From Zestosphaera tikiterensis (GTDB taxonomy: Archaea > Thermoproteota > Thermoprotei_A > Sulfolobales > NBVN01), in NCBI GenBank assembly GCA_003056265.1, contig NBVN01000003.1, positions 120,001 to 152,000 on the forward strand: 32,000 bases of DNA. The letters are read 5' to 3'. How positions within the stretch are numbered: position 1 is the first letter of the stretch; every line of letters starts with the position of its first letter. Positions 9,674 through 23,850 of the stretch are shown one piece after another. The translations under genes and the position numbers were made by a program. Below the pieces are notes generated by a model, which had not been told where the DNA came from, did not search any database, and saw only the letters and a program-made list of their open reading frames with translations.

Positions 9674-9737
9674 CTTAAGCCCCTACACATCTTACTTAAG
9701 TTTAGTTATAAAGCTTTCAAATTCTCAACGACTTGAT

Positions 9738-11237: not shown

Positions 11238-11295
11238 TTAACGTAACACCAGATAGATATTATTCGATACGACGTTAATTAAATTTAACCATACC

Positions 11296-12654
11296 TCAAC
11301 GAATAAACTCGGTAACCTCCATAGGTAAATCAAGGCATGCCCTCCACCTACCGTAACGTACTTCAGGCATTATCAAATGCTTAACCGCTCTATCCACCGG
11401 TACGTAAACACCTAAAGATACTTTCCTTTCCAAAGCGATTTCATCCCTAGCTAAGTTAGAAGCTTTAAAACCGCATTTAGGGCATCTCCACCCCTTACCT
11501 CGACCTAAGGACTTCATCCTATGACCGCATTTAGGGCATTTAGGGTTTAAATACTTAACCCCAACGACATCTAACACGCTTACCTTATCCACATGAAGTA
11601 CGGGCCCGAAACCCGTCCAGAACTTAACACCGCCGCAAACCTCCACGCGATCTCCATCCATTAAAGCTTGAAGTACTTTATTAAGGCCTGTTTCTTTAAA
11701 CGCTACGGCGTTAAGGGTTGAAACCCCGTCAACGATTTTAATCATTACGTCACCACCTCGTAGGGTTGAGGGCCTACCTAACACAACACCTTCAAAACAA
11801 CCTGTTTGGTAGGGTCTCACATCATCTAAAGATCTCCTCACGTGGTGGGCGTTAGTTCCTTGATTGGTTTTAAACACTGCCCAACCTTCTATCTCCTCGC
11901 AGATCTTCAACGATTTAAAAGCTTTAAGAAGTGCTTTAGGGTCCTCACCTCTAATACCTAGAAGAACTGGATTACTTCCTGAGGGGGTTATGAGCGGCTT
12001 ATCCTTGCTGTAGTCGTAGTTAAGGAAAGTTACGTGTTTAAACTCCTCATCCATAGCTTTAATCGATTCTACATCAACACACCTCTCTTTAAGGTAGTTG
12101 CTAGGATGTCTATAAACGATTAACTCATAAGTACAGTCAGGTAGGTTAACAGCTCCAACGGCGGCTAAAGCCCCTACCAAACCCCTCTTTAAACCAAGGG
12201 GTGTTTCCACACGCCCGTTTAATTCGTTAATTACGTTAACTAAGTAGTCCATATGTACGTAATCGGTTAACGCCTTAAGGTAGAGCTTCCTTAAAGGTTC
12301 CGATACTTCACCATATACGAAAGCTAAGCCTGGATCCACACCATAGCTTGTTAAGTCTTCATTAACGCGTGTGCTTACATACTTTAAAACTTCATTAACG
12401 ACGTCCTTCTTCAAACTATCTAGAAGTTCCGTCGGTACCTTAAGCCTTAAGGCTAAGGCGGCATTCCCTCTAGTTTTGAAAGGTATTGTAGGGTTTAAAC
12501 GTATTAGGTTTGGAAAATCTAAGGGTGTTACTTTAGAGTGTTTGTTAAGTATGTTCTTAAGTATTCTGTAAGTTACGTGTGTTGTACAACCTGAAAACTG
12601 CGTATCTACGTCGTCTAAGCCTATATGGACTGTCGTGTAGTCGTTAACACTCAC
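11296..12654 (-). CDS. tiaS: tRNA(Ile2) 2-agmatinylcytidine synthetase TiaS
   Basis: The N-terminus reads HIGLDDVDTQFSGCTTH. It also has FPNLIRLNPTIPFKTRGN, GLVGALAAVGA and a C-terminal Zn ribbon (CPKCGHRMKSLGRGKGWRCPKCG), matching the TiaS domain order. Confidence 0.88.
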   Translation of the reverse strand: MSVNDYTTVHIGLDDVDTQFSGCTTHVTYRILKNILNKHSKVTPLDFPNLIRLNPTIPFKTRGNAALALRLKVPTELLDSLKKDVVNEVLKYVSTRVNEDLTSYGVDPGLAFVYGEVSEPLRKLYLKALTDYVHMDYLVNVINELNGRVETPLGLKRGLVGALAAVGAVNLPDCTYELIVYRHPSNYLKERCVDVESIKAMDEEFKHVTFLNYDYSKDKPLITPSGSNPVLLGIRGEDPKALLKAFKSLKICEEIEGWAVFKTNQGTNAHHVRRSLDDVRPYQTGCFEGVVLGRPSTLRGGDVMIKIVDGVSTLNAVAFKETGLNKVLQALMDGDRVEVCGGVKFWTGFGPVLHVDKVSVLDVVGVKYLNPKCPKCGHRMKSLGRGKGWRCPKCGFKASNLARDEIALERKVSLGVYVPVDRAVKHLIMPEVRYGRWRACLDLPMEVTEFIR

Positions 12655-12905
12655 TTCTTTTGAGTTACCTCCCTACCCTCGACAACTATCATAGTTAACG
12701 TTGATCTAACGTTAGGTATCCTTCTAATCTTACTGGATATTATCTCCTTTAAAGCTTCTGTTGTCGGCGCCCTAACCTTAGCTACGATGTCGTACACACC
12801 ATACACTATATACGTTTCGGTAACCCCCTCTATAGTGCTTAATGTGTTCATAACCTCCTCTTCCGTGCCTATATCCGTGTTTATTAACACTATAGCTTCG
12901 GGCAT
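12651..12905 (-). CDS. Stand-alone Lrp/AsnC-type ligand-binding (RAM) domain protein
   Basis: The protein is 84 aa with a beta-alpha-beta-beta-alpha-beta pattern (VLINTD...V.ET.IVYG.YDIVAKV...). It overlaps the tiaS start by 4 bp. Confidence 0.7.
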   Translation of the reverse strand: MPEAIVLINTDIGTEEEVMNTLSTIEGVTETYIVYGVYDIVAKVRAPTTEALKEIISSKIRRIPNVRSTLTMIVVEGREVTQKK

Positions 12906-12973
12906 ACTTACACCCTATAAAATAAGAGGTGAGGCTATATAAATTTTAAAGAAGAACATCCTTAGGTAGGGTA

Positions 12974-13522
12974 ATGGATGTAGATTGTTTTAAACCTAAG
13001 GTGTTTGTAGTTAGGTTGGAAGGAGATAATCCGAAACTCTCGACAGCCTTGAAACTCGTTAGGTTGGGGTATGCCACCCGAATAAGCCCTCACGACATAC
13101 CTAAGAACTCCATAGTTTTAAATCCTTTATCGACGAAGGTGTTAACCCCTCAAGACAGGGGTTTAATATGTCGTTACGGTTTAGTCGTTATAGATACTTC
13201 ATGGAATACCGGTATAGAGTTGATTAAGAAGGTTGGCGATAGCGTTAAAGCACAGCATAGAGTGCTTCCAGCGTTGAAAGCTGGAAACCCGATAAACTAC
13301 GGCGTTTTAACTAAGTTAAGTAGCGTTGAAGCCGTGGCGGCAGCGCTATACATCACCGGCTTAAGAAATTACGCGTTGGAGTTACTTAATAAGTTTAAAT
13401 GGGGTCCTACCTTCATAAACCTTAACCTCGAGTACCTAGAGAGGTATTCTCAAGCACGAAACGAGGATGAAGTACTTAAAATCCAGGAGGAAATACTTAA
13501 TAAACACTTACGCGTTGAGTAA
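12974..13522 (+). CDS. tsr3: 16S rRNA aminocarboxypropyltransferase Tsr3
   Basis: It has GDNPKLSTALKL.RLG, VIDTSWN and LPALKAGNPINYG...KLSSVEAVAAALYITG, the characteristic Tsr3 (DUF367) motifs. Confidence 0.8.
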   Translation: MDVDCFKPKVFVVRLEGDNPKLSTALKLVRLGYATRISPHDIPKNSIVLNPLSTKVLTPQDRGLICRYGLVVIDTSWNTGIELIKKVGDSVKAQHRVLPALKAGNPINYGVLTKLSSVEAVAAALYITGLRNYALELLNKFKWGPTFINLNLEYLERYSQARNEDEVLKIQEEILNKHLRVE

Positions 13523-13562
13523 GCATTAAAAATAGATAATAAGGTTGAAAACTTCTTTATTT

Positions 13563-13882
13563 GGCGGAGCCGGCTGGCAACCACGGGGTAATCCTGAGGA
13601 AGCACCGCCCTCCGCGCGGCGCGGGAACCCCGTAAGGGGTGCGGGGAGACCCGCGGCTCCGGCACAGAAACGACACGGCCGCCCTCGGATGTCTATGATG
13701 CGGTGAGGACATCCCGGTAACGGGGTGTCAGTAACCCGCTGAGTATGGGGGCGGATGCGTTGAAACGGCCGCCCTCCCGGGAGTAAGGCCAAGCAACGCC
13801 TATGAAGGCCGCGTGAGGCGTGGGTAGGCCGTTTAGCTAAATGTTGCCGTAGTACAGAAGGCGGGCTATAGCCGGCACCGCC
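13563..13882 (+). ncRNA. rnpB: RNase P RNA (archaeal type-A-like, about 320 nt)
   Basis: This is a GC-rich island in AT-rich flanks. The terminal P1 helix pairs GGCGGAGCCGGC with GCCGGCACCGCC. The 5' P4 strand is CR-I-like (CCUGAGGAAGCACC) and the 3' element is CR-V-like (GUACAGAAGGCGGGCUAUAGCC). The two minus-strand ORFs here have Arg/Pro/Gly-rich junk translations. Confidence 0.8.
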
Positions 13883-14086
13883 TAAAAATGCTTTTACGTC
13901 TTTACGGCTTTCGGTGAAAGCATTATCTTAACTAAACGTTTAAAGATATATGTTTTTAAATGTCTTAATGCTTAGTAAAGTTTTTATTGTTTAAAGGTTT
14001 TCAATCTTAATAACGTCGGTAGGTGGTGTTGAATAGGTAGTGGTTTACGCGTAGGTATCGTCGGCGCTGGTAAGATAGGTACTGCT

Positions 14087-14875
14087 ATGATAAAAGCGTT
14101 TCTGCAGTGTTTTGAAGGTATTCACGTTTACGCTAGCGGTAGGAGGGATGAGACCTTAGCTAAGGCTTCTAGTTTAGGTGCTGAAGCACATAAAGATAAC
14201 GACTACGTAGTTCGTAATTCAGACGTGGTTTTCCTTAGTGTTAAACCTTATCACTTCCCAGTGCTTTACTCGCAGGTTAATAGGGACTCTTGGGAGGGTA
14301 AGGTAGTGGTTTCAGTTATGGCCGGCGTTAAATTAGAAACTCTTGAGAAGGCTTTAGTAGGTGCTGAAGTTTTCAGGGCTATGCCCAACATAAACGCGTT
14401 TGTAGGGAGGTCCACCACAGCAGTAGCTACGAATAACGCAGCAGTGAGAAATGAAAGTAGGGACTTAGTCGATAAACTCTTCAGGTGTTTAGGAACTGTA
14501 TATTGGGTTCCTGAAGAGTATTTGGATATTTGGACAGGCCTCGTAGGTAGTGGGCCGGCCTTCATAGCTGAGATAATAGATGGGCTTGTATTAGGTGCTG
14601 TAGCCTCAGGAATGTCTAGAGAGGTAGCCTACAACGCCGTATTAGATATGATCGACGGAACCGTAAAACTCCTTAAAGAGTTGAAAATCCACCCCATAGA
14701 GGTTAGAGATGAAGTTACGACACCAGCGGGGACCACGATCAACGGGTTGAAAGTCTTCGAAAGTAAAGGCGTGAAAGCAGGACTTATGGAGATAGTTGAG
14801 ACCGCATATAAAAGATCCGTTGAGATAGGTAATGAAGTCAATAAAGCAATAAAAACTAAATTACAAATGATTTAA
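14087..14875 (+). CDS. proC: Pyrroline-5-carboxylate reductase; the true start is probably upstream of the listed ATG
   Basis: The body is P5CR-like (SVKPY, MPN....G, PAFIAE, TTPAGTT). The Rossmann loop (VGIVGAGKIGTA) is encoded in frame at 14054-14086, upstream of the first ATG. See the finding. Confidence 0.8.
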   Translation: MIKAFLQCFEGIHVYASGRRDETLAKASSLGAEAHKDNDYVVRNSDVVFLSVKPYHFPVLYSQVNRDSWEGKVVVSVMAGVKLETLEKALVGAEVFRAMPNINAFVGRSTTAVATNNAAVRNESRDLVDKLFRCLGTVYWVPEEYLDIWTGLVGSGPAFIAEIIDGLVLGAVASGMSREVAYNAVLDMIDGTVKLLKELKIHPIEVRDEVTTPAGTTINGLKVFESKGVKAGLMEIVETAYKRSVEIGNEVNKAIKTKLQMI

Positions 14876-14924
14876 AACATTCCTAAGATCATTTATAAGC
14901 TCTCCCAATTTCTAATTTATACTG

Positions 14925-15001
14925 GGGCCGGTAGCTCAGCCTGGAAGAGCGCTCGGCTTGCAACCGAGAGGTCCCGGGTTCAAGTCCCGGCCGGTCCACC
15001 A
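14925..15001 (+). tRNA. tRNA-Ala (anticodon UGC), CCA encoded, no intron
   Basis: I folded the cloverleaf by hand. The acceptor GGGCCGG/CCGGTCC has the G3:U70 alanine identity pair. The D stem is GCTC/GAGC, the anticodon stem is CTCGG/CCGAG with loop CTTGCAA, and the T arm is CCGGG-TTCAAGT-CCCGG. The discriminator is A, followed by CCA. There is a TATA-like TTTATAA about 30 bp upstream. Confidence 0.95.
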
Positions 15002-15295
15002 ACCCCTCATTAAGTTAACTACGTCGCCCGCGATTTCCTTCGCTAGCCTACGTAATTTCTTCGTGGTTAATCTGTAGTTAACTGACCCGTCATCGTTAAC
15101 TACGCCCAGCTGGGTTAGCTGGTAGTGACGCACTAGAACCTCAAGAGGGGCTACGTAGTTTGTGATGACTTTACCGCCGACCCTATACTGCTCGTAGACA
15201 TAGAGCTTACCCTTAACCTTCTTAACGACGAAGCCCAAGCCAACACCCAAATATGTAGTTAACTCTGAAGGCATATTAACCCAAACCCCACCCAA
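14936..15295 (-). mobile_element. Int(N): N-terminal fragment of a partitioned SSV-type integrase, reading antisense through tRNA-Ala (att junction)
   Basis: KGKLYVYEQYRVGGKVITNYVAPLEVLVRHYQLTQLGVV resembles the SSV-type integrase N-terminus. The last about 22 codons (WWTGRDLNPGPLGCKPSALPG) are simply the reverse complement of the tRNA gene. No catalytic C-terminal part follows. The likely ATG is at 15274. Confidence 0.65.
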
Positions 15296-15378
15296 GAGAT
15301 CCTACGTAAGTTATCTATAAAAACGCTATGTAGATGTAAGAAGCAAGTTCTGAAAAACCTTGGCAACATAAATTCATG

Positions 15379-16074
15379 CTAGCGTTTAAACCATTTATCT
15401 AGTGAAATATGTTTATTATGTTCAGCTAGCTCAATTCTATTTCTTATTTCATCGGCAATTTTTCGCTGTATTTCATTGATGTTAGTTAATAAATAGTTGA
15501 GAACTCTTTCTTCGATTTCCAGTTCCTTTGCCTTGACTTTAACCATTTCCGCTATTAATTCACTATATTTATTCTCGTCCAGCTTAACTTCTATTTCCTT
15601 AGCCAGCTCCTCGACTTTGTGTTTATATTCGTCGCTCTTTAATACATCCCGTATTTTTACTAGCCTTTCGTCTATTGGCATGTTCCCACTTGAGTGAAAT
15701 AGTTCGGATTTCAATATAATTTCAGCTAACTTTCTCGGATTCCTTAAGGTAGCTATGTAGTCCAGCATGTCATGCAGGTCTACTGCTAATCTACACTCTT
15801 CTTTATTATAATACTTACTACAAATGGTCAACACCATATTCCTTCTACCTTTACTACCACGACTCCAATCATGCCCGATAAAACCTGCCTCTATTAACTC
15901 ATAGAAAACCCTCTTATCATCTTCACTACTTAAACGGTCCGTAGCTTTAGATGGCTCATCAATCAATTTATTAACAAATCGAGCAACATCCTCACTAACA
16001 CCTAGACAACGAGCCAACTTCACGTGAAGCTTCCAAGAAGGCATTGTAATCAGCCTCTCACTAGCACCACTCAA
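15379..16074 (-). CDS. Hypothetical protein with His/Asp-rich N-terminal domain (SWKLH...GHDW...DLHDMLDY) and a C-terminal coiled coil
   Basis: The ORF has spaced H, HD and HD motifs suggestive of a metal-dependent hydrolase fold, and the C-terminal 80 aa are charged heptads. The probable start is the ATG at 16044 (MPSWKLH). Confidence 0.5.
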   Translation of the reverse strand: MSGASERLITMPSWKLHVKLARCLGVSEDVARFVNKLIDEPSKATDRLSSEDDKRVFYELIEAGFIGHDWSRGSKGRRNMVLTICSKYYNKEECRLAVDLHDMLDYIATLRNPRKLAEIILKSELFHSSGNMPIDERLVKIRDVLKSDEYKHKVEELAKEIEVKLDENKYSELIAEMVKVKAKELEIEERVLNYLLTNINEIQRKIADEIRNRIELAEHNKHISLDKWFKR

Positions 16075-16480
16075 ATTAAATTGTTAGTTTCCAATTTCTT
16101 GTTAGTTATTTTCTTTAAAACATTCACCATTTTAAAAATAGTAACACGAGTAACGTGATTAGAGTTGCTAGTCCTATAAGAGATATGGATATTTTCTTCT
16201 TATGATATCTAATATCACTTCAACGTTGTTGCTTCCTACGGGTACGTCTATCTCCTCCTTGTTGGCTTTGACAGTTCATTATATGGTTAATGATTAATTA
16301 TAAACGACCTTACACCTATGTCTTTAAATTCAAATAAATAAAGTAGTTTTGACTTCCTCAGTTATCGAGACAGAAACATATCCAGTTTAGCTATGACGCC
16401 TCATTGTGATAAATGCCTTTATCACTTTAAAAATTATCGTAAAGGCTTTACTGGAATCTCGCAGTATATTTAGTCAGCAC

Positions 16481-17812
16481 TTAACTTAGATTTCTCACGT
16501 AATTGGTGAACTCCTCGTTACTTGAGAAGAGCTTATACATATTGTATGAGTATATAGCATATACCCTACCGTTTACGCATCCACTCTGACTCCAGTAGCT
16601 AAAGTACTCTTGTAGTGCTATGGTAACATCTTTAGCGGTTAAAGCATAAGGCATATTAGTATAATATCTCCCTGCGGGATCTACTATCGCAAGCTTTCCG
16701 TTAGTTTCAGGTAAAGCTACTGTTGCATGACCTACTGTTTCGTTGTCTTTTTCAAAGACAACCAGCAAAACCCATACAATACGTTTCTTTCCGTTATAGT
16801 TTAATATCATGCTTGCTAAGAGGTTTGCCATATCTTCGCAATCACCAGTTAAATCTCTTGCTGTTTCGTTGGGAAATCTCCAAAATTCACGCCTCCACAT
16901 TAACGACGTATTCAATTCAGGCAATATCGGTTCTGGGGAATCGTATGAGTAGTATATGCTGTCTTTTACCCATAAATACATTTTTAGTATGTCATTCCAA
17001 AGCTCGTTTATATCTGCTTGATTGCTCCAACCGCCAGTAACGTTGATTACAAGCGATTTAATCGCTGGATCTTCTGGTGTTATAAACTTCATCCAGTCCT
17101 CATATTCTAGTGCTTGCCTTAAATTTACCTGGCTCTTGATGCTGTTATACCAAGATATGAAGCTCTCGTATTCGGTTTTAAGTGAGTTATACATATTTAC
17201 CAACGCTTCGTACTTGCTGACTAGCGAATCATAAAACTCTTTTAACATGTTGTAGTTTATGCTTAACTTATCGTAATCTTCTTGAAGTAATGAATATTTC
17301 TTGTTAAGGTCGTTGTACTTATTGTTGAGAGTGCTGTAATCACTAAGTAATGAGTTATACTGGTTTTGAAGTGCAACATAGTTGTTATTTAGTATGTTGT
17401 AGTTGTTAAGTAGCTCGTTGTATTGCGTGGTGATTTTTACGTAGTCGTTCTTAAGGGCCTCGTAATCGTTAAGTAACTGCTCGTATTGATTCTTTAACAT
17501 GTTATAATCGTTTTTAAGTACGCTATAGTTGTTGAGCAACCTACTATATCGAGCGGTAAGCTCGTTATAGCTGTCCTTAAGTTGGTCGTATTGGTTCTTT
17601 AACGTGTCGTAGTTACTTTTAAGTACGTTGTAGTTATTGAGCAACATACTATATTGATTAGTTAGCGAATCATACTTATTACTCAACGTTTGATAATCCT
17701 GTTTGAGAGATAAAAACTCACTATAGAAATACCCAAAAAGAGACGCAAAAACCATATTCAAAACAACTAACGTAACTACCACAACCTTCAACGAAGGCAA
17801 ATTACCTCCCAT
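16481..17812 (-). CDS. Membrane-anchored protein: N-terminal TM helix, 27-heptad Y-x-x-L coiled-coil stalk, C-terminal transglutaminase-like cysteine protease/transglutaminase core
   Basis: The TM helix is KVVVVTLVVLNMVFASLFGYFY. Tyr occurs at every seventh residue from Y40 to Y222. The Cys/His/Asp triad context is TGDCEDMANLL (C325), VGHATVAL (H362) and AIVDPAG (D378). Confidence 0.75.
   Translation of the reverse strand: MGGNLPSLKVVVVTLVVLNMVFASLFGYFYSEFLSLKQDYQTLSNKYDSLTNQYSMLLNNYNVLKSNYDTLKNQYDQLKDSYNELTARYSRLLNNYSVLKNDYNMLKNQYEQLLNDYEALKNDYVKITTQYNELLNNYNILNNNYVALQNQYNSLLSDYSTLNNKYNDLNKKYSLLQEDYDKLSINYNMLKEFYDSLVSKYEALVNMYNSLKTEYESFISWYNSIKSQVNLRQALEYEDWMKFITPEDPAIKSLVINVTGGWSNQADINELWNDILKMYLWVKDSIYYSYDSPEPILPELNTSLMWRREFWRFPNETARDLTGDCEDMANLLASMILNYNGKKRIVWVLLVVFEKDNETVGHATVALPETNGKLAIVDPAGRYYTNMPYALTAKDVTIALQEYFSYWSQSGCVNGRVYAIYSYNMYKLFSSNEEFTNYVRNLS
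17129..17722 (-). repeat. 21-nt (heptad) periodic coding repeat region
   Basis: It encodes 27 consecutive heptads with invariant Tyr and Leu/Ile/Phe at +3. The repeats are degenerate at the nucleotide level. Confidence 0.85.
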
Positions 17813-18371
17813 AATTTATCATAAAGAGTTACATAAAAAAGATTGCGTTGCTAAATAATAAATTGTTAGACAGATACTAGCTACTTCTTTAGTTAGTTTA
17901 AAAGACCTTTCTAATCTAACTCAGATACAAAGATCTTGATCATCACTCTTCTCTCCAAAGAATATAGGAATTGATGTCATATTACTGGTATTCTGGTATT
18001 ATAAAGAGAGTTCTCACGATTGCTTCGTACCTGCTACCTACCTATGATAAGCCCTTTTATTTCTCTTATTAGAGTTCAAGAAAAAGGTTAAAGAAATAGT
18101 AAAACCTGTTATAAAGGTAAGGAGCTAACGTTAGAAGAATACATTAAAAGAGTAGACGAGGAATGTAAAGGCATGAGAAAATTTAGAATAAGCACAAAAG
18201 AAAAATCTAAATACGAAGACAATTGAAACGCCCTATTAAAAACTTAGAAGTAGGTAACATAAACCAAATATTGTTGCCGTTGAAGCTTGCTCTTAATGGT
18301 AAGAGCGTAGATTGCTTATTAAACTGCTTAAACATGCTTATATCTTAACCTTTATAAGGTTTGCTTAGGGT

Positions 18372-19589
18372 TTATAAGTAAGGGTAGTGACCGTCTGGGT
18401 GGGAAGGGTAGAATTTCTCGTTCATTTCCTTTATCAGTTCTAGCAGTTCGTGTGAATTGTGAGCTAAAGGTATGCTATCGAGTAAATCTCGCCATTTCTT
18501 ACTTTGTTCGCATAACCCATTCCATTGCGAATACCCTTTGTCTAGTCCTCTAAGGGCATCAGATAAGCTAGGGTCTAGTCTTCTGAGGACGTTAGATAAG
18601 CTAGGTATGTCAACACCAACTTTCAATCCGTATTCCTGATATTTATTGGCGTAACCGCTTAACCAAGCTTTTTGGAACTTGTTAGGTTCAAACTCCTCAA
18701 GCGGAACTTTTCTTCCGTTACCTGTCTTTGGATTGTTGCGGAAATCTCTGTATGCTTCAAAGTGAGGCACGACATTATTTATGAACATATCGTATAGCGA
18801 ACTAAAGTCGTTTGACCAAGTTCTTGGGTGGAAAAGCGGATATTCCTTCGGTAGGGAGTAAGGATCTATGGGTACAACCGCTACGTTATGAAAGTCTATT
18901 GATGGGCCTAACCCTGCTACGACATATAACGCTACATTGTTAAAGTTCTCATCCCATAGGGGTTTAACAACCTTTAATAGGGTTTTAAAGCCTGTTAGTT
19001 GCTTTTCTAAAATCCTTGAGCTATCCCATTCACGTTTCCCAGTAGGATCCTTGAATGATAATTCAAAGATAATCCTTCCCCGCCCGCTATCACGTAGAGA
19101 TTTCTTAAGCTCTTCTCTAATAAGGCTAATTGCCTTCTCGTTATTATTTAAGGTCGAGAAGAAGATACCATTTGTTTGAATAACAGCTCTTGTGCTGGGA
19201 TATCTGTTCAGCCCAATTTCTTGTATTACCTGTAAAGCCTTACCGCAGGCTTTTAACGTAAGTAAAGTTCTATCCAAAGAAAGGCACGGCTCACCTCCCT
19301 GTATTCTTACCCAGTTAATTTTCCTTTGAACGTTAAGACTGTAGAGATTATCCAGAGCCTTCAATACGTGATCTAAACTATATGTGTAACCCTCTCTATT
19401 CGGAAACCACGCATATCTCCAAGCATAACATAAGGGACATCTAAGGTTGCATCCAGCATACCTTAAAACAAGGGCGTATCCTTCACCACCTCTTTTACCT
19501 TCCTTATTCAACTCAAAAGGTCTAATTTTCGAATCTATTGATGACTCAGTTGGTGATCTAGCAAAAAATTCGTATTGCTTCATAACCAT
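18372..19589 (-). CDS. Radical SAM enzyme (activase/QueE-like N-terminal core) with an uncharacterised C-terminal extension of about 200 aa
   Basis: The CX3CX2C motif is AGCNLRCPLCYAW (codons at 19428-19451), and the GGE SAM-binding motif is IQGGEPCLS. I do not recognise the second half. Confidence 0.75.
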   Translation of the reverse strand: MVMKQYEFFARSPTESSIDSKIRPFELNKEGKRGGEGYALVLRYAGCNLRCPLCYAWRYAWFPNREGYTYSLDHVLKALDNLYSLNVQRKINWVRIQGGEPCLSLDRTLLTLKACGKALQVIQEIGLNRYPSTRAVIQTNGIFFSTLNNNEKAISLIREELKKSLRDSGRGRIIFELSFKDPTGKREWDSSRILEKQLTGFKTLLKVVKPLWDENFNNVALYVVAGLGPSIDFHNVAVVPIDPYSLPKEYPLFHPRTWSNDFSSLYDMFINNVVPHFEAYRDFRNNPKTGNGRKVPLEEFEPNKFQKAWLSGYANKYQEYGLKVGVDIPSLSNVLRRLDPSLSDALRGLDKGYSQWNGLCEQSKKWRDLLDSIPLAHNSHELLELIKEMNEKFYPSHPDGHYPYL

Positions 19590-19787
19590 ACTCTATAACC
19601 TCATCAATATCCTCTCTGTAAATCTACTATGTTAAGTAACCTTATATAGTTTCAACTCAAACGTTGCTCACTATCTAAGCATTCAACGCAGACTTCTTAA
19701 CCCTTGCGTTTAAAGCTGTGGAAGGGAAGGTAAACGGTTTAAATGTTAAACACGTATATAATTATAGTGTTATGGTGGTTGCTTGTG

Positions 19788-20096
19788 ATGTTAGGAAAGA
19801 TACACATATTACTGAATAAGGAGATGATCCGCGATGGGAAGTATCAAGCAATCGTAGAGAGGCAAGCCAAGCTCTTAAGGGAACTCATAGAGATGAGTAA
19901 TATCAAATGTCCCTTCTGCGATTATAAAGCAGACATATCTCAATTCAAGCTCCTCAGAGATCCTTGGAGGTTTAGGTTCTACAGAGTTAGGATGCTTCAA
20001 TGCCCTAAATGTCATGGAGTATTCAACCATTATTACGGGCTGTCCTCAAAGGATAAGGAGGTTAAGTTCACAGTTAAAGTAAAGCCTGGGAAATGA
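19788..20096 (+). CDS. Small Zn-ribbon protein (CPFC...CPKC)
   Basis: The ORF track starts at 19743, but TATATAAT at 19755-19762 lies inside that extension, about 29 bp upstream of the in-frame ATG at 19788. A leaderless start at 19788 is therefore more likely. It has two CxxC pairs and is transcribed divergently from the radical SAM gene. Confidence 0.55.
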   Translation: MLGKIHILLNKEMIRDGKYQAIVERQAKLLRELIEMSNIKCPFCDYKADISQFKLLRDPWRFRFYRVRMLQCPKCHGVFNHYYGLSSKDKEVKFTVKVKPGK

Positions 20097-20102
20097 GCAG
20101 AG

Positions 20103-20276
20103 ATGGCTATGGTTGAAAAGCCTACAGAGAGAACTTACGCTACCGAATTGGTTGCGGTGATTAAAGAAAAGAAAGATTTAGGTTTTGACACGGAAGTTGA
20201 AGAGCGTTTGAGTTGCTTAGACTTTATAGTGCGGTTAACCATTACCCTGACTTTAGGGTTTGATAGGTCTTCATGA
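20103..20276 (+). pseudogene. 57-codon ORF, possibly a truncated PD-(D/E)xK-like nuclease N-terminal fragment
   Basis: It starts 7 nt after the Zn-ribbon stop. YATELVAVIKEKKDLGFDTEVEERLSCLDFIV resembles the E...D-hh core of restriction-endonuclease-fold proteins but ends prematurely. It is below the ORF-track cutoff. Confidence 0.3.
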
Positions 20277-20403
20277 TTTCCTCTAAAAGGTCTACAGCAT
20301 TTAACTCAAACGTCAAGATTATCTCATAAAAATTCTAAGAAAAGCAGAGAACCTCAACATTCGCCACATGCTTGAGGCTCCGCTTTTTAAGGTGGGGTAA
20401 ATG

Positions 20404-20410
20404 TTTATAA
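20404..20410 (+). promoter_or_regulatory. TATA box (TTTATAA) positioned for transcription of the structured RNA candidate
   Basis: It lies about 26-30 bp upstream of the first base-paired G run at 20432-20436. Confidence 0.4.
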
Positions 20411-20435
20411 GTTTGTGTTTAATTAAGTCATGGTT

Positions 20436-20588
20436 GGGTGTGGGCAACCGTAGCTTGGGATGAGACCCACATCTTCCCGGAGCTGACGGCGGGAGCTGAT
20501 AGGTGATGCGCTCCCGGTGAGGGGCTTCAGAAAGGTGATGGAAGCCCTAGGGGGAGAACCCCTGTTAAAAACAACAGGGGCCGTCAGC
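20436..20588 (+). ncRNA. Unclassified GC-rich structured RNA candidate (5' hairpin plus a 9-bp helix closing three hairpins)
   Basis: I folded these helices by hand: 20436-20444/20466-20474, 20482-20490/20580-20588, 20491-20496/20510-20515, 20521-20528/20541-20548 and 20559-20566/20573-20580. The G:U pairs form only on the + strand. No ORF of 60 aa or more is present, and GC is much higher than in the flanks. Confidence 0.45.
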
Positions 20589-20781
20589 ATCCAAGAACGG
20601 AATACCCTTAGAGAAAGCTTTCAACCCTATATATCATCTTATATTTGAACAAGCACTTAACAAACTGTTGGTTGAGGGTGTTGTAGTAAGTCCTAAGGAG
20701 AGGATTGATGGGGGAAGTATTCAGCGTTTCTTATCGTGCTTCAACCCAGTAAATAACCTACTGCTTAGTTGCTCTTATTAA
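20569..20781 (+). pseudogene. Start-less open frame (70 codons), likely the C-terminal remnant of a decayed gene
   Basis: The translation IPLEKAFNPIYHLIFEQALNKLLVEGVVVSPKERIDGGSIQRFL looks protein-like, but there is no ATG and its 5' end lies inside the RNA candidate. Confidence 0.25.
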
Positions 20782-21900
20782 CTACGAATAACTTCTTAAG
20801 TATTCTTGAATTATTGGTGAGAGACGTTTTTTAGCTTTTGATATTACTTCAAGTCCTAAAGTTAGTGTTTCTGCGTTGTCTAGAAGTATTTCATCGTTTA
20901 TTATTAGTGTTTCCACGCGTAGCTCTCCTTCAACGATAGCTTTAGTTAAGCTGTTTATTTCTGTAGGTAAGGGCCAGCCGGGCGGTTCTGAGGTATTAAA
21001 CATAAGTATGTTTGTTATGTAGTTGTTTTCTATAGGGCCTAAAGACTTAAATCCTAGGATGCTGGGGTTTCTGGCCGTCGCCGCGTAAATTACGTCTATT
21101 GGGTGTTTACCGGTTTTATACACGACCTCTCTAGAGACGTCTATCATGCTGTATGAAGGTCTAACGCCTATGCCTAACCCTTCGTTAGGTTTCCACATGC
21201 TTAACTGCGATCCCCACCTGATTACGTTATTTCCAGACCCGTTCGTAGGGTTTATATAAACTACGTTGGGTTCTGAAGGGTCTACGTAAGGCGCGTTTAA
21301 CACGAAGAGCTTCAAACCATATGCTTTAGCAGTCTCTAAAACTTCATCAGTGGGTTTTCCGCAAGTTGCTAAAGCTACCTTCACCTCATCAACTTTCTCA
21401 TGCCATCTGTTAATCAACATTTTAAACTCGTTCTCAGGCTCGAACTCCTCCAAACCGCAGTTTATAGGCGGGGCTAGAACAACGTTAAAGCCTGAGTCGT
21501 GTGCCGCCCTAGCTACCTCATCTAAGTATATATCTATAAATAACGCGTTCGTAATCCCTTTAGAGATCATTTCAATCATAGTCATAGCTGCTAAGAAATA
21601 CATATCAGTCCTGCTTAACTTCCTAAGGTAGTCTAGATTCTTACTTAAATCCGGGTCTTTAACGACGTACCTAAGCGGGTAAAGAGAAGCTATGGTGTAC
21701 GCGGAGCTAAACGCGGGTAGGACCAACCTATCCTTACCGCTAATCAATAGTTCGGGGTAGCTGAATTCCTCCGGAGGCTCTCCCTCACCCACTCCGTTAA
21801 CCCTTCCCTCACTTGAGAATATATACCCCTCCTTAATTAGGAGTTTCTCCTCGGTAGAGAACGTGAGTATTGAGGCGTTATTAATTAGGATTTTAACCAA
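20782..21900 (-). CDS. Amidohydrolase-superfamily-like protein lacking the canonical HxH metal motif
   Basis: The N-terminal beta-sandwich pattern (ILINNASILTF...GYIFSSEGRVNGVGEG...GKDRLVLPAF) is typical of cytosine/MTA deaminase-like amidohydrolases. Where HxH is expected the sequence is SSAYT. It has a TTG start and ends 6 bp from the nucleoside phosphorylase gene. Confidence 0.6.
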   Translation of the reverse strand: MVKILINNASILTFSTEEKLLIKEGYIFSSEGRVNGVGEGEPPEEFSYPELLISGKDRLVLPAFSSAYTIASLYPLRYVVKDPDLSKNLDYLRKLSRTDMYFLAAMTMIEMISKGITNALFIDIYLDEVARAAHDSGFNVVLAPPINCGLEEFEPENEFKMLINRWHEKVDEVKVALATCGKPTDEVLETAKAYGLKLFVLNAPYVDPSEPNVVYINPTNGSGNNVIRWGSQLSMWKPNEGLGIGVRPSYSMIDVSREVVYKTGKHPIDVIYAATARNPSILGFKSLGPIENNYITNILMFNTSEPPGWPLPTEINSLTKAIVEGELRVETLIINDEILLDNAETLTLGLEVISKAKKRLSPIIQEYLRSYS

Positions 21901-21906
21901 GGCTTT

Positions 21907-22761
21907 TCACAACCTCTTAGCTATTATAGCCGGCGTGAGGAACTTCCTACCCTCAATAGCTTTAACTTCATCCCATTCGCTAAGTATCTTCACGGCTTCG
22001 TTAGCTACCTTTATAGCTTCAGTAACTCCAGCCCCTGGAACGAACTCGTCGGTGATTCTATTAGCTATGGCAGCGCATACAGCGCCTCCCCTACCGCCGT
22101 AGATATTCGTTAAGGTGAATATTGTTGAGGCCTCCATCTCGAAGTTAAGTACGTTCACCTCGGAGAGTTTAAGATGTATGTCAGCCCACCTACTGGGTAA
22201 ATACCCTTTAAATCCAGGCCTCCCCTGACCTACGTAGAAGGAGTCGCTGCTTGCCGTTAAACCCACATGATACCTAACCCCTAACTCCTCAGCTGCCGCT
22301 ATCAACGCTAAAACTACTTCATAATTAGCTACGGCTGGGTAGGCCTCATCAACGTATATCTTCGTTACGCCATCATACCTCACAGCACCCGTTGATATCA
22401 CTAAATCACCTACTTTAATCTCCTTCTTTAAAGCCCCTGTAGTACCTACCCTAATGAACGTATCCGCCCCAACCCTAAAAAGCTCTTCAATAGCTATGGC
22501 TGCAGCCGGGCCGCCAATACCTGTTGACGTAGCAGCTATCGAAACACCTCGATACCTACCTACGTACGTAACGTACTCCCTATGTTTGCTTAACTCTTTA
22601 AACTCATCCCAAAAACTAGCTATTAATGGAACTCTATCGGGATCCCCCGGTAGTAGAACATACCTCGGCACCTCACCGGGTTTAACAGCTATATGGTATT
22701 GCCTTCCACCGACGTCCTCAGGTGTTGAGGCAGATCTAACCCTCTCAGACAAAGCATCCAC
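21907..22761 (-). CDS. Nucleoside phosphorylase, PNP/UDP family 1 (uridine/purine nucleoside phosphorylase-like)
   Basis: It has YVLLPGDPDRV, STGIGGPAAAIAIEEL, IRVGTTGAL and NFEMEAS motifs. The start is GTG. Confidence 0.82.
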   Translation of the reverse strand: MDALSERVRSASTPEDVGGRQYHIAVKPGEVPRYVLLPGDPDRVPLIASFWDEFKELSKHREYVTYVGRYRGVSIAATSTGIGGPAAAIAIEELFRVGADTFIRVGTTGALKKEIKVGDLVISTGAVRYDGVTKIYVDEAYPAVANYEVVLALIAAAEELGVRYHVGLTASSDSFYVGQGRPGFKGYLPSRWADIHLKLSEVNVLNFEMEASTIFTLTNIYGGRGGAVCAAIANRITDEFVPGAGVTEAIKVANEAVKILSEWDEVKAIEGRKFLTPAIIAKRL

Positions 22762-22850
22762 CTAAAATTGATTTCCACCGAGGTATTTTAAAACGCTGTC
22801 GTAAAAACGTATTTAAGCTCTCCATATACTATTTGTTTGGTGTGGCGTAG

Positions 22851-23324
22851 ATGGCTGTGAATATAGAGATACCCCCTGAGTGGAGGCGCTTTAGATATAG
22901 GGGGAAGACCTTAGAGGAATTGCTATCGATGCCTATGGATCAATTAATAAATCTTTTCCCCGCGAGGATTAGAAGATCCCTCATTAGAGAGTCTAAAACG
23001 CAGGTCTTACTTAGAAGGCAGGAATACGGAATTAAAGACTCACCCAGAATGAAACTCTTAAGTAAGGTTATGAAGGCCAGAGAGTTAATGAGTAAGGGTA
23101 AGAACGTAAGAATAAGAACTCACGTAAGAGACGCGATAATCTTGCCGGTGATGGTAGGCCTCACTATAGAAGTATATAACGGTAAGGAATATGTGCCGGT
23201 TAGAATAACGCCTGAAATGATAGGTCATTACCTAGGTGAGTACGCACCCACCACCAAGCAAGTAAAGCATGGAGAGCCAGGACTTAAGGCAACTAGATCT
23301 ACGTTATTCGTCGCGATGAAGTAA
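22851..23324 (+). CDS. rps19p: 30S ribosomal protein uS19 (S19P)
   Basis: It has [12 protein letters not shown]...[56 protein letters not shown], the uS19 core. Confidence 0.9.
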
Positions 23325-23556
23325 ACTTCAACCTTCTTTACAAATAAAACCTTAACTGTCCGTGGTTGGTATTAAAGTCTTTAACTCCTATATCTGGTGC
23401 TTTTATCTTTAGTAAGGTGACGTGTTTAAACCCTTCAAGACATTTCAAGACTTAGTTATGACGGTGTCTTAAGAATTAGGGCATCGTTCCAATAAAGACG
23501 GATATGTGAGTAATGCCTGTATAACTTAGGGGCATCGCTTTAGAACTTTAAGGAGG

Positions 23557-23850
23557 TTATTTAACCTCAAGACATTCTTTCAAAACGTTAAGTAAGTATT
23601 TCTTAAGTTTGACTGCGTCGTTTTCAAGCAATACTAGCTTAAACTCTCGTGTTTTATGTTTGATCTTAACTAAGGAGATGTAGCCTTTATAGCCCTCCGG
23701 TATTAAGTAAGCCAACTCTTTCCTATCCGCTTTTATGCGATGCTTCTCTACGGATGTAATGTCGCATAACCTAAGCTCTATCTCTTGAGGGTTTCTTACA
23801 GCGCTTAACGTTTTCAACTCCTTAAGTGAAGGTGATCCTTTAACCTTCAC
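23557..23850 (-). CDS. Hypothetical protein; the frame stays open 44 codons further upstream
   Basis: The ORF has a GTG start. The upstream in-frame extension to 23982 has no ATG/GTG/TTG but translates to protein-like sequence (see the finding). Confidence 0.45.
   Translation of the reverse strand: MKVKGSPSLKELKTLSAVRNPQEIELRLCDITSVEKHRIKADRKELAYLIPEGYKGYISLVKIKHKTREFKLVLLENDAVKLKKYLLNVLKECLEVK

What the first reader, a model, noticed from the sequence alone, without database searches (positions are those of the whole stretch)
15296..20781. tRNA-linked accessory island with function-unknown cargo; best candidate for an undescribed system
The roughly 5.5 kb between the Int(N)/tRNA-Ala junction and the nucleoside-metabolism genes differ from the rest of the window. 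GC is visibly lower. There are long AT-rich non-coding gaps (16075-16480 and 17813-18371). No housekeeping genes are present. The gene set does not match any pathway or defence system I can name. It comprises an H/HD-motif protein with a coiled-coil tail (15379..16074). It also has a TM-anchored Tyr-heptad stalk with a transglutaminase-like C/H/D core (16481..17812), and a radical SAM enzyme with a novel C-terminal half (18372..19589). A Zn-ribbon protein is transcribed divergently from the radical SAM gene and is followed 7 nt later by a 57-codon ORF (19788..20276). Finally there is a promoter-equipped structured RNA (20436..20588) flanked by gene debris. Inference: this is cargo of an integrated element. 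A radical SAM enzyme, a predicted hydrolase and a surface-exposed cysteine-protease/transglutaminase domain in a mobile context are the kind of mix seen in conflict (defence or counter-defence) or cell-surface-modification modules. Whether the genes function together is unknown.
Basis: inference. Interest (0 to 1): 0.72.

Follow-up and report, generated by a model that had tools for sequence, protein, structure and literature searches.

The report
Decayed mobile-element island beside tRNA-Ala
This is a real 5.2-kb strain-specific island left beside a tRNA gene by an archaeal virus- or plasmid-like element, but its genes are unrelated passengers rather than one new system; the most interesting passenger is an uncharacterised stand-alone radical SAM enzyme that often sits among restriction and defence genes elsewhere.

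Summary
The window comes from Zestosphaera tikiterensis. The accessory-island observation is right, and I could define it exactly. Contigs from a sibling strain (about 1.5% diverged, one from the same metagenome) join window 15015 directly to 20202. The island proper is therefore 15016-20201.

It starts with the N-terminal half of an SSV-type "suicidal" integrase that reads into tRNA-Ala. No Int(C) and no attR exist anywhere in the 32 kb, so the element is decayed and immobile.

The "undescribed system" reading is not supported. No window island gene and no other gene family recurs as a regular neighbour:
- **231-aa protein:** an ORFan with no HD domain.
- **443-aa protein:** a membrane anchor, a perfect 27-heptad Tyr/Leu stalk and a DUF553 transglutaminase-like domain. 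It belongs to a small family found in unrelated contexts.
- **Radical SAM protein:** about 83 full-length archaeal relatives that are always stand-alone. About 55 loci were examined.
- **57-codon ORF:** spans the island junction.
- **"Gene debris":** the last 57 codons of a wHTH gene that is intact in the sibling strain.
- **GC-rich "RNA":** fills a second 220-nt strain-specific replacement and has no known family.

The remaining lead is the radical SAM family. It lies in restriction/defence or mobile-element contexts in 6 of about 15 loci, twice with a MazG-like gene.

The parts
14925..15001 (+). tRNA-Ala(TGC), the integration target (attL side). Its T-loop reads TTCAAGTCC here and TTCAAATCC in the island-less allele.
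   Evidence: ARAGORN; Rfam tRNA 68.6 bits; alignment A3
14936..15295 (-). Int(N), the N-terminal fragment of an SSV-type 'suicidal' tyrosine integrase. Its last ~22 codons (WWTGRDLNPGP...) are the reverse complement of the tRNA 3' half. A TTTATA box lies 26 nt upstream of the start.
   Evidence: PF07935 E 3.5e-4, 21.2 bits against a cut-off of 22. phrog_23443 E 5e-6. phmmer against 1.84e9 representatives gave 50 hits, mostly 100-135-aa fragments, plus full-length P0115 (PF07935 + PF16795) and P0120 (PF16795). tblastn of those hits only 14948-15238. Promoter-like box.
15016..20201 (.). Island proper: a 5,186-bp segment absent from the sibling-strain contigs L090 and L091, which join 15015 to 20202 through a 32-nt spacer.
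   Evidence: blastn and MAFFT. Flank identity is about 98.5%, spread uniformly.
15379..16074 (-). 231-aa ORFan (annotated as 221 aa from the ATG at 16044; PUA32859.1). All-helical, with a coiled-coil-like C-terminal third. Function unknown.
   Evidence: The only hit is its own record. No family or PDB match. AlphaFold2 pLDDT 46.
16075..16480 (.). AT-rich intergenic gap (31.5% GC).
16481..17812 (-). 443-aa protein: TM anchor (residues 8-26), a 27-heptad Tyr(a)/Leu(d) coiled-coil stalk (residues 33-235) and a DUF553 transglutaminase-like Cys-His-Asp domain (residues ~245-443).
   Evidence: PF04473 E 2.8e-9. 18 homologues, most (about two thirds by length and precomputed Pfam hits) sharing the coiled-coil + DUF553 architecture. 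Invariant C325/H362/D378. Hydropathy and heptad register. DNA repeats of 105 nt.
17813..18371 (.). AT-rich intergenic gap (31.1% GC).
18372..19589 (-). 405-aa stand-alone radical SAM enzyme (PUA32861.1). The N-terminal core resembles PflA/QueE/NrdG (Fer4_12). The conserved C-terminal ~150 residues, ending in a near-invariant HYPYL, match no known family. It has a lineage-specific 11-aa tandem duplication (DNA 18540-18605).
   Evidence: Pfam and NCBIfam. 83 full-length homologues. Alignment A1 invariants. AlphaFold2 pLDDT 94. Best PDB fold matches PFL-AE 3cb8 and QueE 5th5, query TM-score only 0.26-0.35. TRF.
19743..20096 (+). Small CxxC...CxxC Zn-ribbon protein: 117 aa from 19743, or 102 aa from 19788 as called by JGI. 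NCBI annotates only 67 aa. Divergent from the radical SAM gene.
20103..20276 (+). 57-codon ORF that straddles the island's right junction. Codons 1-33 are island DNA and codons 34-57 are DNA shared with the island-less allele. Probably not a gene.
   Evidence: Its cluster has a single member with no relatives.
20202..20362 (.). Intergenic segment shared with the island-less allele (90-94% identity). Weaker similarity continues to about 20372.
20373..20592 (.). A second strain-specific segment of about 220 nt. It replaces about 1.07 kb in the sibling strain (the promoter plus codons 1-344 of a 401-aa wHTH gene). It contains a TTTATAA box (20404) and the GC-rich structured element.
20436..20588 (+). 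Candidate structured RNA (61% GC): a multibranch fold with a 9-bp closing stem and three hairpins, two of whose loops contain AGGUGAUG. Strand uncertain. Ends exactly at the rearrangement breakpoint.
   Evidence: fold z -4.1 (+) and -5.7 (-). No Rfam match at E<=5. No tRNA even when introns are allowed. No other copy.
20593..20753 (+). 3' remnant (last ~57 codons) of a 401-aa winged-helix regulator gene that is intact in the sibling strain (L089).
   Evidence: tblastn 76% identity, E 7e-22. Pfam HTH_5/MarR_2/DprA_WH on the intact protein.

Best explanation
The region is the decayed remnant of a mobile element that integrated into tRNA-Ala(TGC) of Zestosphaera tikiterensis using an SSV-type ('suicidal') tyrosine integrase.

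Such integrases carry their attachment site inside their own gene, so integration splits the gene into Int(N) and Int(C). Here Int(N) survives, fused to the tRNA. Int(C) and attR have been lost, so the 5.2-kb segment (15016-20201) can no longer excise by itself. It persists as a strain-specific island.

Its genes are independently transcribed passengers with separate evolutionary histories:
- an ORFan;
- a membrane-anchored, long-stalked DUF553 transglutaminase-like cysteine enzyme, probably working outside the membrane at about S-layer distance;
- a stand-alone radical SAM enzyme of an uncharacterised archaeal family;
- a small Zn-ribbon protein.

They are not a co-evolving system. Immediately to the right, a second strain-specific rearrangement replaced most of a wHTH regulator gene with about 220 nt that carry a promoter-like box and a GC-rich, strongly folding element. 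That element may be a small RNA gene.

Shown: the integrase homology, the read-through into the tRNA, the island-less allele, the absence of Int(C) and attR in the window, and the lack of conserved neighbourhoods.

Inferred: that all cargo arrived with the element, that Int(C) and attR were lost by a later deletion, the extracellular placement of the DUF553 domain, and that the GC-rich element is expressed.
For: **Integrase**
- The ORF matches residues 15-100 of full-length integrase P0115 (PF07935 + PF16795) and residues 5-86 of P0120 (PF16795). Most of its 50 relatives are themselves 100-135-aa fragments, as expected for split integrase genes.
- The ORF's C-terminus is encoded by the antisense of the tRNA 3' half.
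- The literature describes exactly this Int(N)/Int(C) partition for PF16795 integrases (PMC8371274, PMC7253208).

**Island-less allele**
- L090 and L091 join 15015 to 20202. L091 comes from the same JGI sample (3300005801) as the island-bearing contig L001.
- The flanks differ uniformly by about 1.5%, so these are two coexisting strains.

**Decay**
- No tRNA-derived repeat occurs elsewhere in the window.
- No Int(C) similarity at E<=10.

**No system**
- All-against-all BLAST clustering of ORFs in about 55 radical SAM loci found no recurrent partner.
- A Pfam census of 118 neighbours found no family in more than 3.
- DUF553 homologue contexts are unrelated.
- The ORFan has no relatives.

**Composition**
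- GC is 37.5% against about 43% in the flanks.

**Second rearrangement**
-.
Against: - No attR or Int(C) was found, so the original extent of the element cannot be reconstructed. Part of the cargo may have arrived by other routes.
- The present right junction lies only about 45 nt beyond where attR should have been. That is a tight coincidence for a random deletion.
- The direction of the event is not proven by two alleles alone. It could be an insertion in the window strain or a deletion in the sibling strain.
- None of the cargo genes has relatives in IMG/VR viral contigs, INPHARED phages or PLSDB plasmids. A viral or plasmid origin is therefore inferred from the integrase only.
- Synteny in more distant relatives was uninformative. 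24 P5CR loci share neither flank with the window.
Confidence: 0.75

Rival explanations
1. The island genes form one previously undescribed multi-gene defence or cell-surface-modification system.
For: The genes lie in a mobile context next to an integrase remnant. They include a radical SAM enzyme and a cysteine-protease-like domain. All are annotated as hypothetical.
Against: - No co-occurrence of any two island genes in about 55 radical SAM loci or 5 DUF553 loci.
- The 231-aa protein is unique to this species.
- The genes are separated by 400-560-nt gaps, and TATA-like boxes lie upstream of several of them.
- No PADLOC system match.
- The 57-codon ORF is a junction chimera.
Confidence: 0.05
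2. The radical SAM gene alone is a self-contained conflict gene: a nucleotide- or nucleic-acid-directed radical enzyme used for defence or DNA/nucleotide modification, analogous to prokaryotic viperins. In some lineages it would work with a MazG-like pyrophosphohydrolase. The rest of the island would be irrelevant.
For: - It is always a single, separately transcribed gene.
- 6 of about 15 loci with at least 3 kb of flank are restriction-modification, defence or mobile-element contexts:
  - L003: HsdM and IS110.
  - L006: C5 methylase, HhH-GPD, Cdc6, TraG-like.
  - L034: Eco57I-like methylase, DUF2357/PDDEXK_7, ParB_N, N6_N4 methylase.
  - L064: MrcB_N-NucS_C nuclease and Dam methylase.
  - L070: EVE, HindVP endonuclease, C5 methylase.
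  - This window.

- A MazG-like gene lies directly downstream on the same strand in two divergent members, L034 and L070.
- The distribution is sparse and patchy across Asgard, DPANN, Bathyarchaeia, Nitrososphaeria, Archaeoglobus and one bacterium.
- The nearest sequence and fold relatives are QueE and activase-type enzymes that act on nucleotide-like or protein substrates.
Against: - About as many loci are in plain housekeeping contexts: L004, L035, L037, L040, L048, L059.
- No background rate was computed, so no enrichment is demonstrated.
- Matches to viperin models are far below threshold: 16.9 bits against a cut-off of 180, and PADLOC pVip E 1.6e-4 over the cluster-binding loop only.
- None was found on viral contigs, phages or plasmids.
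- No biochemical data exist.
Confidence: 0.2
3. The island is ancestral in the species. The 'island-less' allele arose by deletion, for example imprecise excision helped by a superinfecting element's integrase. The segment would then be a region in the process of being lost rather than a recent acquisition.
For: - The island-less allele carries a 32-nt spacer after the tRNA that resembles a scar. It has CATTAAGTTATCAACTACGT against the island's CATTAAGTTAACTACGT, plus a TCAAGTCC fragment like the window's T-loop.
- Suicidal-integrase elements are known to be excised by related incoming elements (PMC8371274).
Against: - The short similarities could be chance.
- Int(N) fused to the tRNA still shows that the DNA originally came in by integration.
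- Either direction leaves the segment accessory and strain-variable.
Confidence: 0.15
4. The region is core chromosome, and its low GC simply reflects AT-rich intergenic DNA.
For: - Another low-GC stretch in the window (7500-10185, 34% GC) is not an island but looks like a replication origin.
- The radical SAM gene's GC (40.3%) is close to the genome average.
Against: - The island-less allele in a sibling strain at 98.5% flank identity.
- The integrase fragment.
- The ORFan.
Confidence: 0.01

Closest known systems
Integrated elements with SSV-type ('suicidal', type I) tyrosine integrases: SSV1/SSV2, pXQ1-type elements in Sulfolobus, pTN3 and pT26-2/TKV elements in Thermococcales
   Same: - The integrase N-terminal domain (PF07935) is present.
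- The att site lies inside the int ORF and coincides with the 3' half of a tRNA gene.
- Int(N) abuts the tRNA after integration.
- Presence varies between strains.
- Cargo is mostly ORFans and hypothetical proteins.
   Different: - Only Int(N) is left. There is no Int(C) (PF16795) and no attR in 32 kb.
- No replication, capsid or conjugation genes identify the parent element.
- The segment is only 5.2 kb.
- No cargo gene has a relative in known archaeal viruses or plasmids.
DUF553 (PF04473) archaeal transglutaminase-like proteins: family 3 of the Makarova-Aravind-Koonin 1999 transglutaminase-like superfamily, papain-like fold (PMC10318531)
   Same: - Pfam match above the gathering score.
- An invariant Cys-His-Asp triad in a GDCEDMA context.
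   Different: - The domain is fused to an N-terminal TM anchor and an unusually regular 27-heptad Tyr/Leu coiled coil.
- This architecture is shared with only a handful of the 18 close, metagenomic relatives.
- I know of no experimentally characterised member (own knowledge).
PflA/NrdG/QueE-type radical SAM enzymes (Fer4_12, COG0602 'organic radical activating enzymes') and, as a functional analogy only, prokaryotic viperins (pVips)
   Same: - CxxxCxxC close to the N-terminus in a GCNLRCxxC context, and a GGEP SAM-binding motif.
- The best fold and sequence matches are PFL-AE and QueE.
- Like pVips, it is a single-gene unit that is often found near defence genes.
   Different: - It is about 150 residues longer, with a conserved C-terminal domain and an HYPYL tail that match nothing known.
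- All curated equivalog scores are 10-20 times below their cut-offs.
- PDB query TM-score is at most 0.35.
- No glycyl-radical partner, queuosine-pathway gene or other partner is conserved nearby.
GC-rich non-coding RNA genes of AT-rich hyperthermophiles (the GC-island principle; own knowledge)
   Same: A local GC spike (61% against about 38%), a fold energy well beyond shuffles, and an upstream TATA-like box.
   Different: No Rfam family, no homologue and no covariation data. It sits exactly at a strain-specific breakpoint, so it could instead be a fragment of something larger or the end of another mobile element.

Membership tests
SSV-type (suicidal) integrase integrated element | Integrase N-terminal domain (PF07935) homologous to full-length SSV-family integrases | tested here: met
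   PF07935 E 3.5e-4, just under the cut-off. phmmer links the ORF to P0115 (PF07935 + PF16795) and P0120 (PF16795) at E 6e-11 and 3e-8.
SSV-type (suicidal) integrase integrated element | Attachment site inside the int ORF, coinciding with a tRNA gene | tested here: met
   The ORF reads through the antisense of the tRNA-Ala 3' half (WWTGRDLNPGP). Full-length relatives have CGGRDSNPG or CGGWDLNPR at the same position.
SSV-type (suicidal) integrase integrated element | Int(C) catalytic fragment (PF16795) at the other end of the element | tested here: not met
   tblastn of P0115 and P0120 against the whole window at E<=10 hits only the N-terminal part.
SSV-type (suicidal) integrase integrated element | attR: a direct repeat of the tRNA 3' part bounding the element | tested here: not met
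   No repeat longer than 11-13 nt of the tRNA region anywhere in the 32 kb. The right junction at 20201/20202 has no tRNA-like sequence.
Genomic island (accessory DNA) | Present or absent between close relatives with conserved flanks | tested here: met
   L090 and L091 lack 15016-20201 at 98.2-98.5% flank identity.
Radical SAM superfamily | CxxxCxxC cluster motif, GGEP SAM motif and a partial TIM-barrel core | tested here: met
   PF04055 30.9 bits (cut-off 29.5) and PF13353 27.6 bits (cut-off 22). C47/C51/C54 are at least 90% conserved and G98-G99-E100-P101 are invariant. AlphaFold2 model pLDDT 94 with alternating beta/alpha elements.
QueE / PflA / NrdG / MoaA equivalogs | Score at or above NCBIfam's curated cut-off over the full length | tested here: not met
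   Best scores are 26.1 bits against 260 (QueE), 24.2 against 131 (NrdG) and 23 against 232 (PflA), over the N-terminal ~90 residues only.
Prokaryotic viperin (pVip) | Match to viperin models over the whole domain | tested here: not met
   NF038283 16.9 bits against a cut-off of 180. PADLOC pVip E 1.6e-4 over residues 46-110 only.
DUF553 / transglutaminase-like (papain-fold) superfamily | Pfam match above the gathering score, and a conserved Cys-His-Asp triad | tested here: met
   PF04473 37 bits against 20.5. C325, H362 and D378 invariant in 19 sequences.
HD-domain phosphohydrolase (231-aa protein) | Match to an HD-domain profile or fold | tested here: not met
   No Pfam hit even at E<=10. 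No PDB sequence match. The model is unusable.
Any catalogued anti-phage defence system (PADLOC-DB v2) | Specific match of island proteins to system components | tested here: not met
   Only coiled-coil matches (LmuB, JetC) and the weak pVip hit.
Any Rfam RNA family (20436-20588) | Covariance-model match | tested here: not met
   No match at the gathering threshold in the window or at E<=5 in 15000-21000. ARAGORN with introns found nothing.

The most novel reading that the evidence does not exclude
The 405-aa protein represents a new family of stand-alone archaeal radical SAM enzymes with a unique C-terminal substrate domain. About 83 clusters are known so far. The family would act on nucleotides or nucleic acids in genetic conflict, as defence or DNA/nucleotide modification, sometimes paired with a MazG-like pyrophosphohydrolase. 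It would be a functional analogue of viperins that no current defence catalogue recognises. A second, weaker possibility is that the GC-rich 150-nt element at the breakpoint is a new promoter-bearing mobile or regulatory RNA.
Probability: 0.2. Interest if true: 0.75.

Novelty: new member of a known kind. Interest (0 to 1): 0.35.

Why it matters
For the scan, the result is mainly a clean-up. A candidate "undescribed system" resolves into a familiar object: a decayed suicidal-integrase island at a tRNA gene, with exact boundaries and an empty-site allele from the same hot-spring community. It is a tidy natural example of how such elements become trapped and eroded in hyperthermophilic archaea.

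Three leads remain:
- **Radical SAM family.** It is well conserved, models with high confidence, and has no known function, no structural relative for its C-terminal half and a recurrent restriction/defence neighbourhood.
- **DUF553 protein.** Its perfectly regular 27-heptad Tyr/Leu stalk would hold a cysteine-enzyme domain at roughly S-layer distance (about 28 nm by my estimate from 27 heptads; inference). The organism is the host of a nanoarchaeal ectosymbiont (own knowledge).
- **GC-rich element.** It folds strongly, carries its own promoter-like box and lies at a rearrangement breakpoint, and it remains unexplained.

Tried and rejected
1. **attR search.** I looked for attR with the repeat finder and with short-word blastn of the tRNA region. 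Nothing longer than 13 nt turned up.
2. **Int(C) search.** tblastn with two full-length relatives found no Int(C) remnant.
3. **Synteny in relatives.** I used my only genome-contig scan on P5CR. None of the 24 Desulfurococcaceae, Sulfolobales and Acidilobaceae loci shares a neighbour or a tRNA with the window, so this said nothing about an empty site. The empty site came instead from 90%-identity cluster members of the flanking proteins.
4. **Viral or plasmid origin of the cargo.** I found no relatives of:
   - Int(N), the 231-aa protein, the DUF553 domain or the radical SAM protein in IMG/VR;
   - Int(N), the DUF553 domain or the radical SAM protein in INPHARED;
   - Int(N) or the radical SAM protein in PLSDB, apart from one spurious 21-residue hit for Int(N).
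5. **Structure of the 231-aa ORFan.** The single-sequence model had pLDDT 46 and was discarded without a fold search.
6. **RNA identity.** All of these were negative:
   - Rfam at E<=5;
   - ARAGORN with introns, and tmRNA mode;
   - nhmmer against 835 kb of fetched loci;
   - an exact-pattern scan of the viral contigs.

   Reading it by eye as a C/D-box or H/ACA sRNA did not fit the box order or spacing, so I rejected both.
7. **The 30-nt similarity between 18350-18379 and 20383-20412 (D11).** I considered it as a possible internal repeat and rejected it. One copy overlaps the radical SAM stop codon, both are TATA-like AT-rich sequence, and part of the stretch between the two copies (20202-20362) is shared chromosomal DNA.
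8. **Import by homologous recombination.** Flank divergence is uniform at about 1.5%, with no gradient towards the junctions. I did not pursue this further.

Full report
**Source and layout**

Exact-sequence look-ups show that the window comes from Zestosphaera tikiterensis. The island genes are B7O98_05335 to B7O98_05355, all annotated as hypothetical.

The left flank is housekeeping: TiaS, an AsnC-type regulator, a ribosome-biogenesis protein, archaeal RNase P RNA (13565-13880, 203 bits), pyrroline-5-carboxylate reductase (P5CR) and tRNA-Ala(TGC) at 14925-15001.

The right flank is an amidohydrolase-like gene (20782-21900), a PNP/UDP-type phosphorylase and ribosomal protein S19.

**Checking the observation**

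GC is 37.5% for 15296-20781, against 42.9% and 43.4% for the flanks. The two long gaps are 31% GC. The contrast is real but modest. The radical SAM gene is 40.3% GC, and another low-GC stretch elsewhere in the window (7500-10185) has a different explanation, given below.

**The integrase fragment**

The ORF at 14936-15295 (-) scores just under Pfam's cut-off for PF07935, the SSV1 D-335 (integrase) N-terminal domain. It also matches a PHROG of unknown function.

A full HMMER search of 1.84 billion representative proteins returned 50 relatives. Most are 100-135-aa fragments, but two are full-length proteins of 342-343 aa. P0115 carries PF07935 at the N-terminus and PF16795, the archaeal phage integrase catalytic domain, at the C-terminus. 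P0120 carries PF16795.

The window ORF aligns to their residues 5/15-86/100. Its last ~22 codons (WWTGRDLNPGP...) are the antisense of the 3' half of tRNA-Ala. The full-length relatives have CGGRDSNPG or CGGWDLNPR at the same position.

This is the signature of the "suicidal" SSV-type integrases. Their attP lies within the int gene, and integration into a tRNA gene splits them into Int(N) and Int(C) (PMC8371274, PMC7253208).

The other half is missing. tblastn with the full-length proteins finds no Int(C) anywhere in the 32 kb, even at E<=10. No copy of the tRNA 3' part longer than 11-13 nt exists elsewhere in the window.

**An island-less allele defines the island**

Proteins at least 90% identical to the flanking P5CR and amidohydrolase led to contigs from a sibling strain.
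- **L090 (JGI 3300005800):** matches window 10468-15015 at 98.5%. A 32-nt spacer follows, then window 20202-20362 at 90%. It then runs into the 5' part of a 401-aa gene (98.6% identical to L089).
- **L091:** shows the same 15015|20202 join. It comes from JGI sample 3300005801, the same sample that yielded L001, a contig 100% identical to the window across the island.
- **L089 (JGI 3300020567):** matches window 20584-26824 at 98.4%. To the left of that it carries the intact 401-aa gene, whose last 57 residues correspond to window 20584-20753 (76% identity, E 7e-22).

Flank divergence is uniform at about 1.5%. These are therefore two coexisting strains, not excision products of one clone.

- **A, 15016-20201:** a 5,186-bp indel, the island proper.
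- **B, 20202 to about 20372:** intergenic DNA shared with the sibling strain.
- **C, about 20373-20592:** 220 nt unique to the window strain. They replace about 1.07 kb, namely the promoter plus codons 1-344 of the 401-aa wHTH gene (Pfam HTH_5, MarR_2 and DprA_WH).
- **D, 20593-20753:** the 3' remnant of that gene. This is the "gene debris".

The "57-codon ORF" (20103-20276) straddles the A/B junction and has no relatives, so it is probably not a gene.

The tRNA T-loop differs by one base between the alleles. This fits a 3' part of the tRNA that the element supplied.

**The cargo, gene by gene**

*The 231-aa protein.* Its own record is the only hit among 5.8 billion protein clusters. It matches nothing in Pfam, NCBIfam, PADLOC, PHROGs or PDB sequences, even at permissive thresholds. 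The single-sequence AlphaFold2 model is unusable. The "H/HD hydrolase" label is unsupported.

*The 443-aa protein.* It has one N-terminal TM segment. Its 200-residue stalk has all 27 tyrosines in the same heptad position and 25 of 34 leucines three positions later. Its C-terminal domain matches PF04473, DUF553 transglutaminase-like, above the gathering score.
- Of its 18 close homologues, about two thirds share the coiled-coil plus DUF553 architecture, judged from length and precomputed Pfam hits. The Cys325-His362-Asp378 triad is invariant in all.
- DUF553 is family 3 of the 1999 transglutaminase-like superfamily (PMC10318531).
- The homologues I could place sit next to a ceramidase, an EVE protein and DUF1156 in one case. 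In another they lie in a Cren7/Lhr/XPD chromosomal region. None is near a radical SAM gene.

*The radical SAM protein.* It has 83 relatives, nearly all full length. The named ones come from Njordarchaeia, Micrarchaeota, Bathyarchaeia, Nitrososphaeria, Archaeoglobus and one Caldisericaceae bacterium.
- The CxxxCxxC and GGEP motifs are conserved, and so is the C-terminal half, down to a near-invariant HYPYL C-terminus.
- An alignment-based AlphaFold2 model is confident (pLDDT 94, pTM 0.93).
- The best PDB fold matches are PFL-activating enzyme and QueE, with query TM-scores of only 0.26-0.35. BFVD gives nothing closer.
- The PDB profile search and the NCBIfam models match only the cluster-binding N-terminus, far below the curated cut-offs.

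*The Zn-ribbon ORF.* It has only generic zinc-ribbon similarities, and its start codon is uncertain.

**Is it a system?**

I examined about 55 loci that encode radical SAM homologues.
- All-against-all clustering of their ORFs found no recurrent neighbour. None of the window's other island genes appears in any of them.
- A Pfam census of 118 neighbouring proteins found no family in more than three.
- The only repeated partner is a MazG-like gene directly downstream on the same strand, in two divergent members, L034 and L070.

The island genes in the window are separated by 400-560-nt AT-rich gaps, and TATA-like boxes lie upstream of several of them.

**What remains interesting**

Among about 15 radical SAM loci with at least 3 kb of flank, six are restriction-modification, defence or mobile-element contexts:
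- L003: HsdM and IS110.
- L006: C5 methylase, HhH-GPD, Cdc6 and a TraG-like gene.
- L034: Eco57I-like methylase, MazG-like, DUF2357/PDDEXK_7, ParB_N and N6_N4 methylase.
- L064: an MrcB_N-NucS_C nuclease and a Dam methylase.
- L070: MazG-like, EVE, HindVP endonuclease, HhH-GPD and C5 methylase.
- The present island.

About as many loci are housekeeping contexts (L004, L035, L037, L040, L048, L059). I computed no background rate, so this is a lead, not a finding.

The GC-rich element in segment C is 61% GC and folds with z of -4.1 to -5.7. It has a TTTATAA box 31-32 nt upstream and ends exactly at the breakpoint with the wHTH remnant. It matches no Rfam family and no tRNA model, and it has no second copy in any sequence I held. 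It may be a small RNA gene, a fragment of one, or the end of another mobile element. I cannot tell which.

**Verdict**

The accessory-island observation is correct and can now be stated precisely. The interpretation as one undescribed multi-gene system is not supported.

The best explanation (confidence 0.75) is a decayed, immobilised SSV-type integrase element at tRNA-Ala that carries unrelated passenger genes, next to a second small strain-specific rearrangement. This is a new member of a known kind.

The most novel reading still open (probability about 0.2) is that the radical SAM protein founds a new family of stand-alone, conflict-associated radical enzymes.

Noticed in passing
window 7500-10185 (core 8934-9280): This is the lowest-GC stretch of the window (30-36%) and has almost no long ORFs. 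A 29-nt inverted pair (8934-8962 / 9252-9280, 86% complementary) contains TCCAGTGGAAAC followed by a G-run. That resembles archaeal origin recognition boxes; compare the Pyrococcus mini-ORB TTCCAGTGGAACT (PMC1904270). The pair flanks a 289-nt AT-rich spacer. Three copies of the palindrome GAGTGTAAATTTACACT lie at 7683-8324. It is a candidate replication origin, but no cdc6/orc1 gene is adjacent; the neighbours are a 2-oxoacid:ferredoxin oxidoreductase and an alcohol dehydrogenase.
   Followed up: partly
window 7919-8281 (-): A 120-aa ORF with an N-terminal CPKC zinc knuckle. It is weakly similar to the N-terminal domain of SSV-type integrases (tblastn with P0115 residues 18-58, E 0.087) and has no Pfam hit. 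It may be a second integrase-N-like DNA-binding protein or remnant, lying next to the origin-like region.
   Followed up: partly
L034:2256-3780 and L070:2083-3661: In two divergent members of the radical SAM family, a MazG-like pyrophosphohydrolase gene follows directly on the same strand. Both pairs are embedded among restriction-modification, EVE or McrBC-like genes. The window has a MazG-domain gene too (9738-10010), but it is 8.4 kb away.
   Followed up: partly
window 18540-18605: A 33-nt tandem duplication inside the radical SAM gene encodes a repeated 11-aa segment (LSNVLRRLDPS / LSDALRGLDKG). It coincides with the only low-confidence block of the AlphaFold2 model (residues 341-350, pLDDT 68) and helps explain why this protein is longer than its relatives.
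   Followed up: no
window 24935-28699 (-): The ribonucleotide reductase large subunit (1254 aa) carries an intein with a LAGLIDADG homing-endonuclease domain, at about residues 540-850.
   Followed up: no
window 20782-22761 (-): The island's right neighbour is a 372-aa amidohydrolase-like protein. It matches the N-ethylammeline chlorohydrolase / metal-dependent hydrolase models only weakly (54 bits against a cut-off of 609). By my own knowledge that group includes MTA/SAH/5'-deoxyadenosine deaminases. It overlaps no Pfam amidohydrolase model and is followed by a PNP/UDP phosphorylase. This could be a nucleoside-salvage pair, and its proximity to a radical SAM gene is probably coincidental, because the pair is also adjacent in the island-less strain.
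   Followed up: no
L090:4549-4580 (island-less allele, just after tRNA-Ala): The 32-nt spacer of the empty site contains TCAAGTCC, like the window's tRNA T-loop variant. It also contains CATTAAGTTATCAACTACGT, like the island's first bases CATTAAGTTAACTACGT. This could be a scar of an earlier integration or excision at this site, or it could be chance.
   Followed up: partly
L008-L031 (P5CR loci of 24 related genomes): The P5CR gene has a completely different neighbourhood in every related Desulfurococcaceae, Sulfolobales or Acidilobaceae genome retrieved, including Zestosphaera sp. at 65-71% identity. No tRNA and none of the window's genes lie within 10 kb. Gene order around this locus is therefore poorly conserved in the group.
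   Followed up: no
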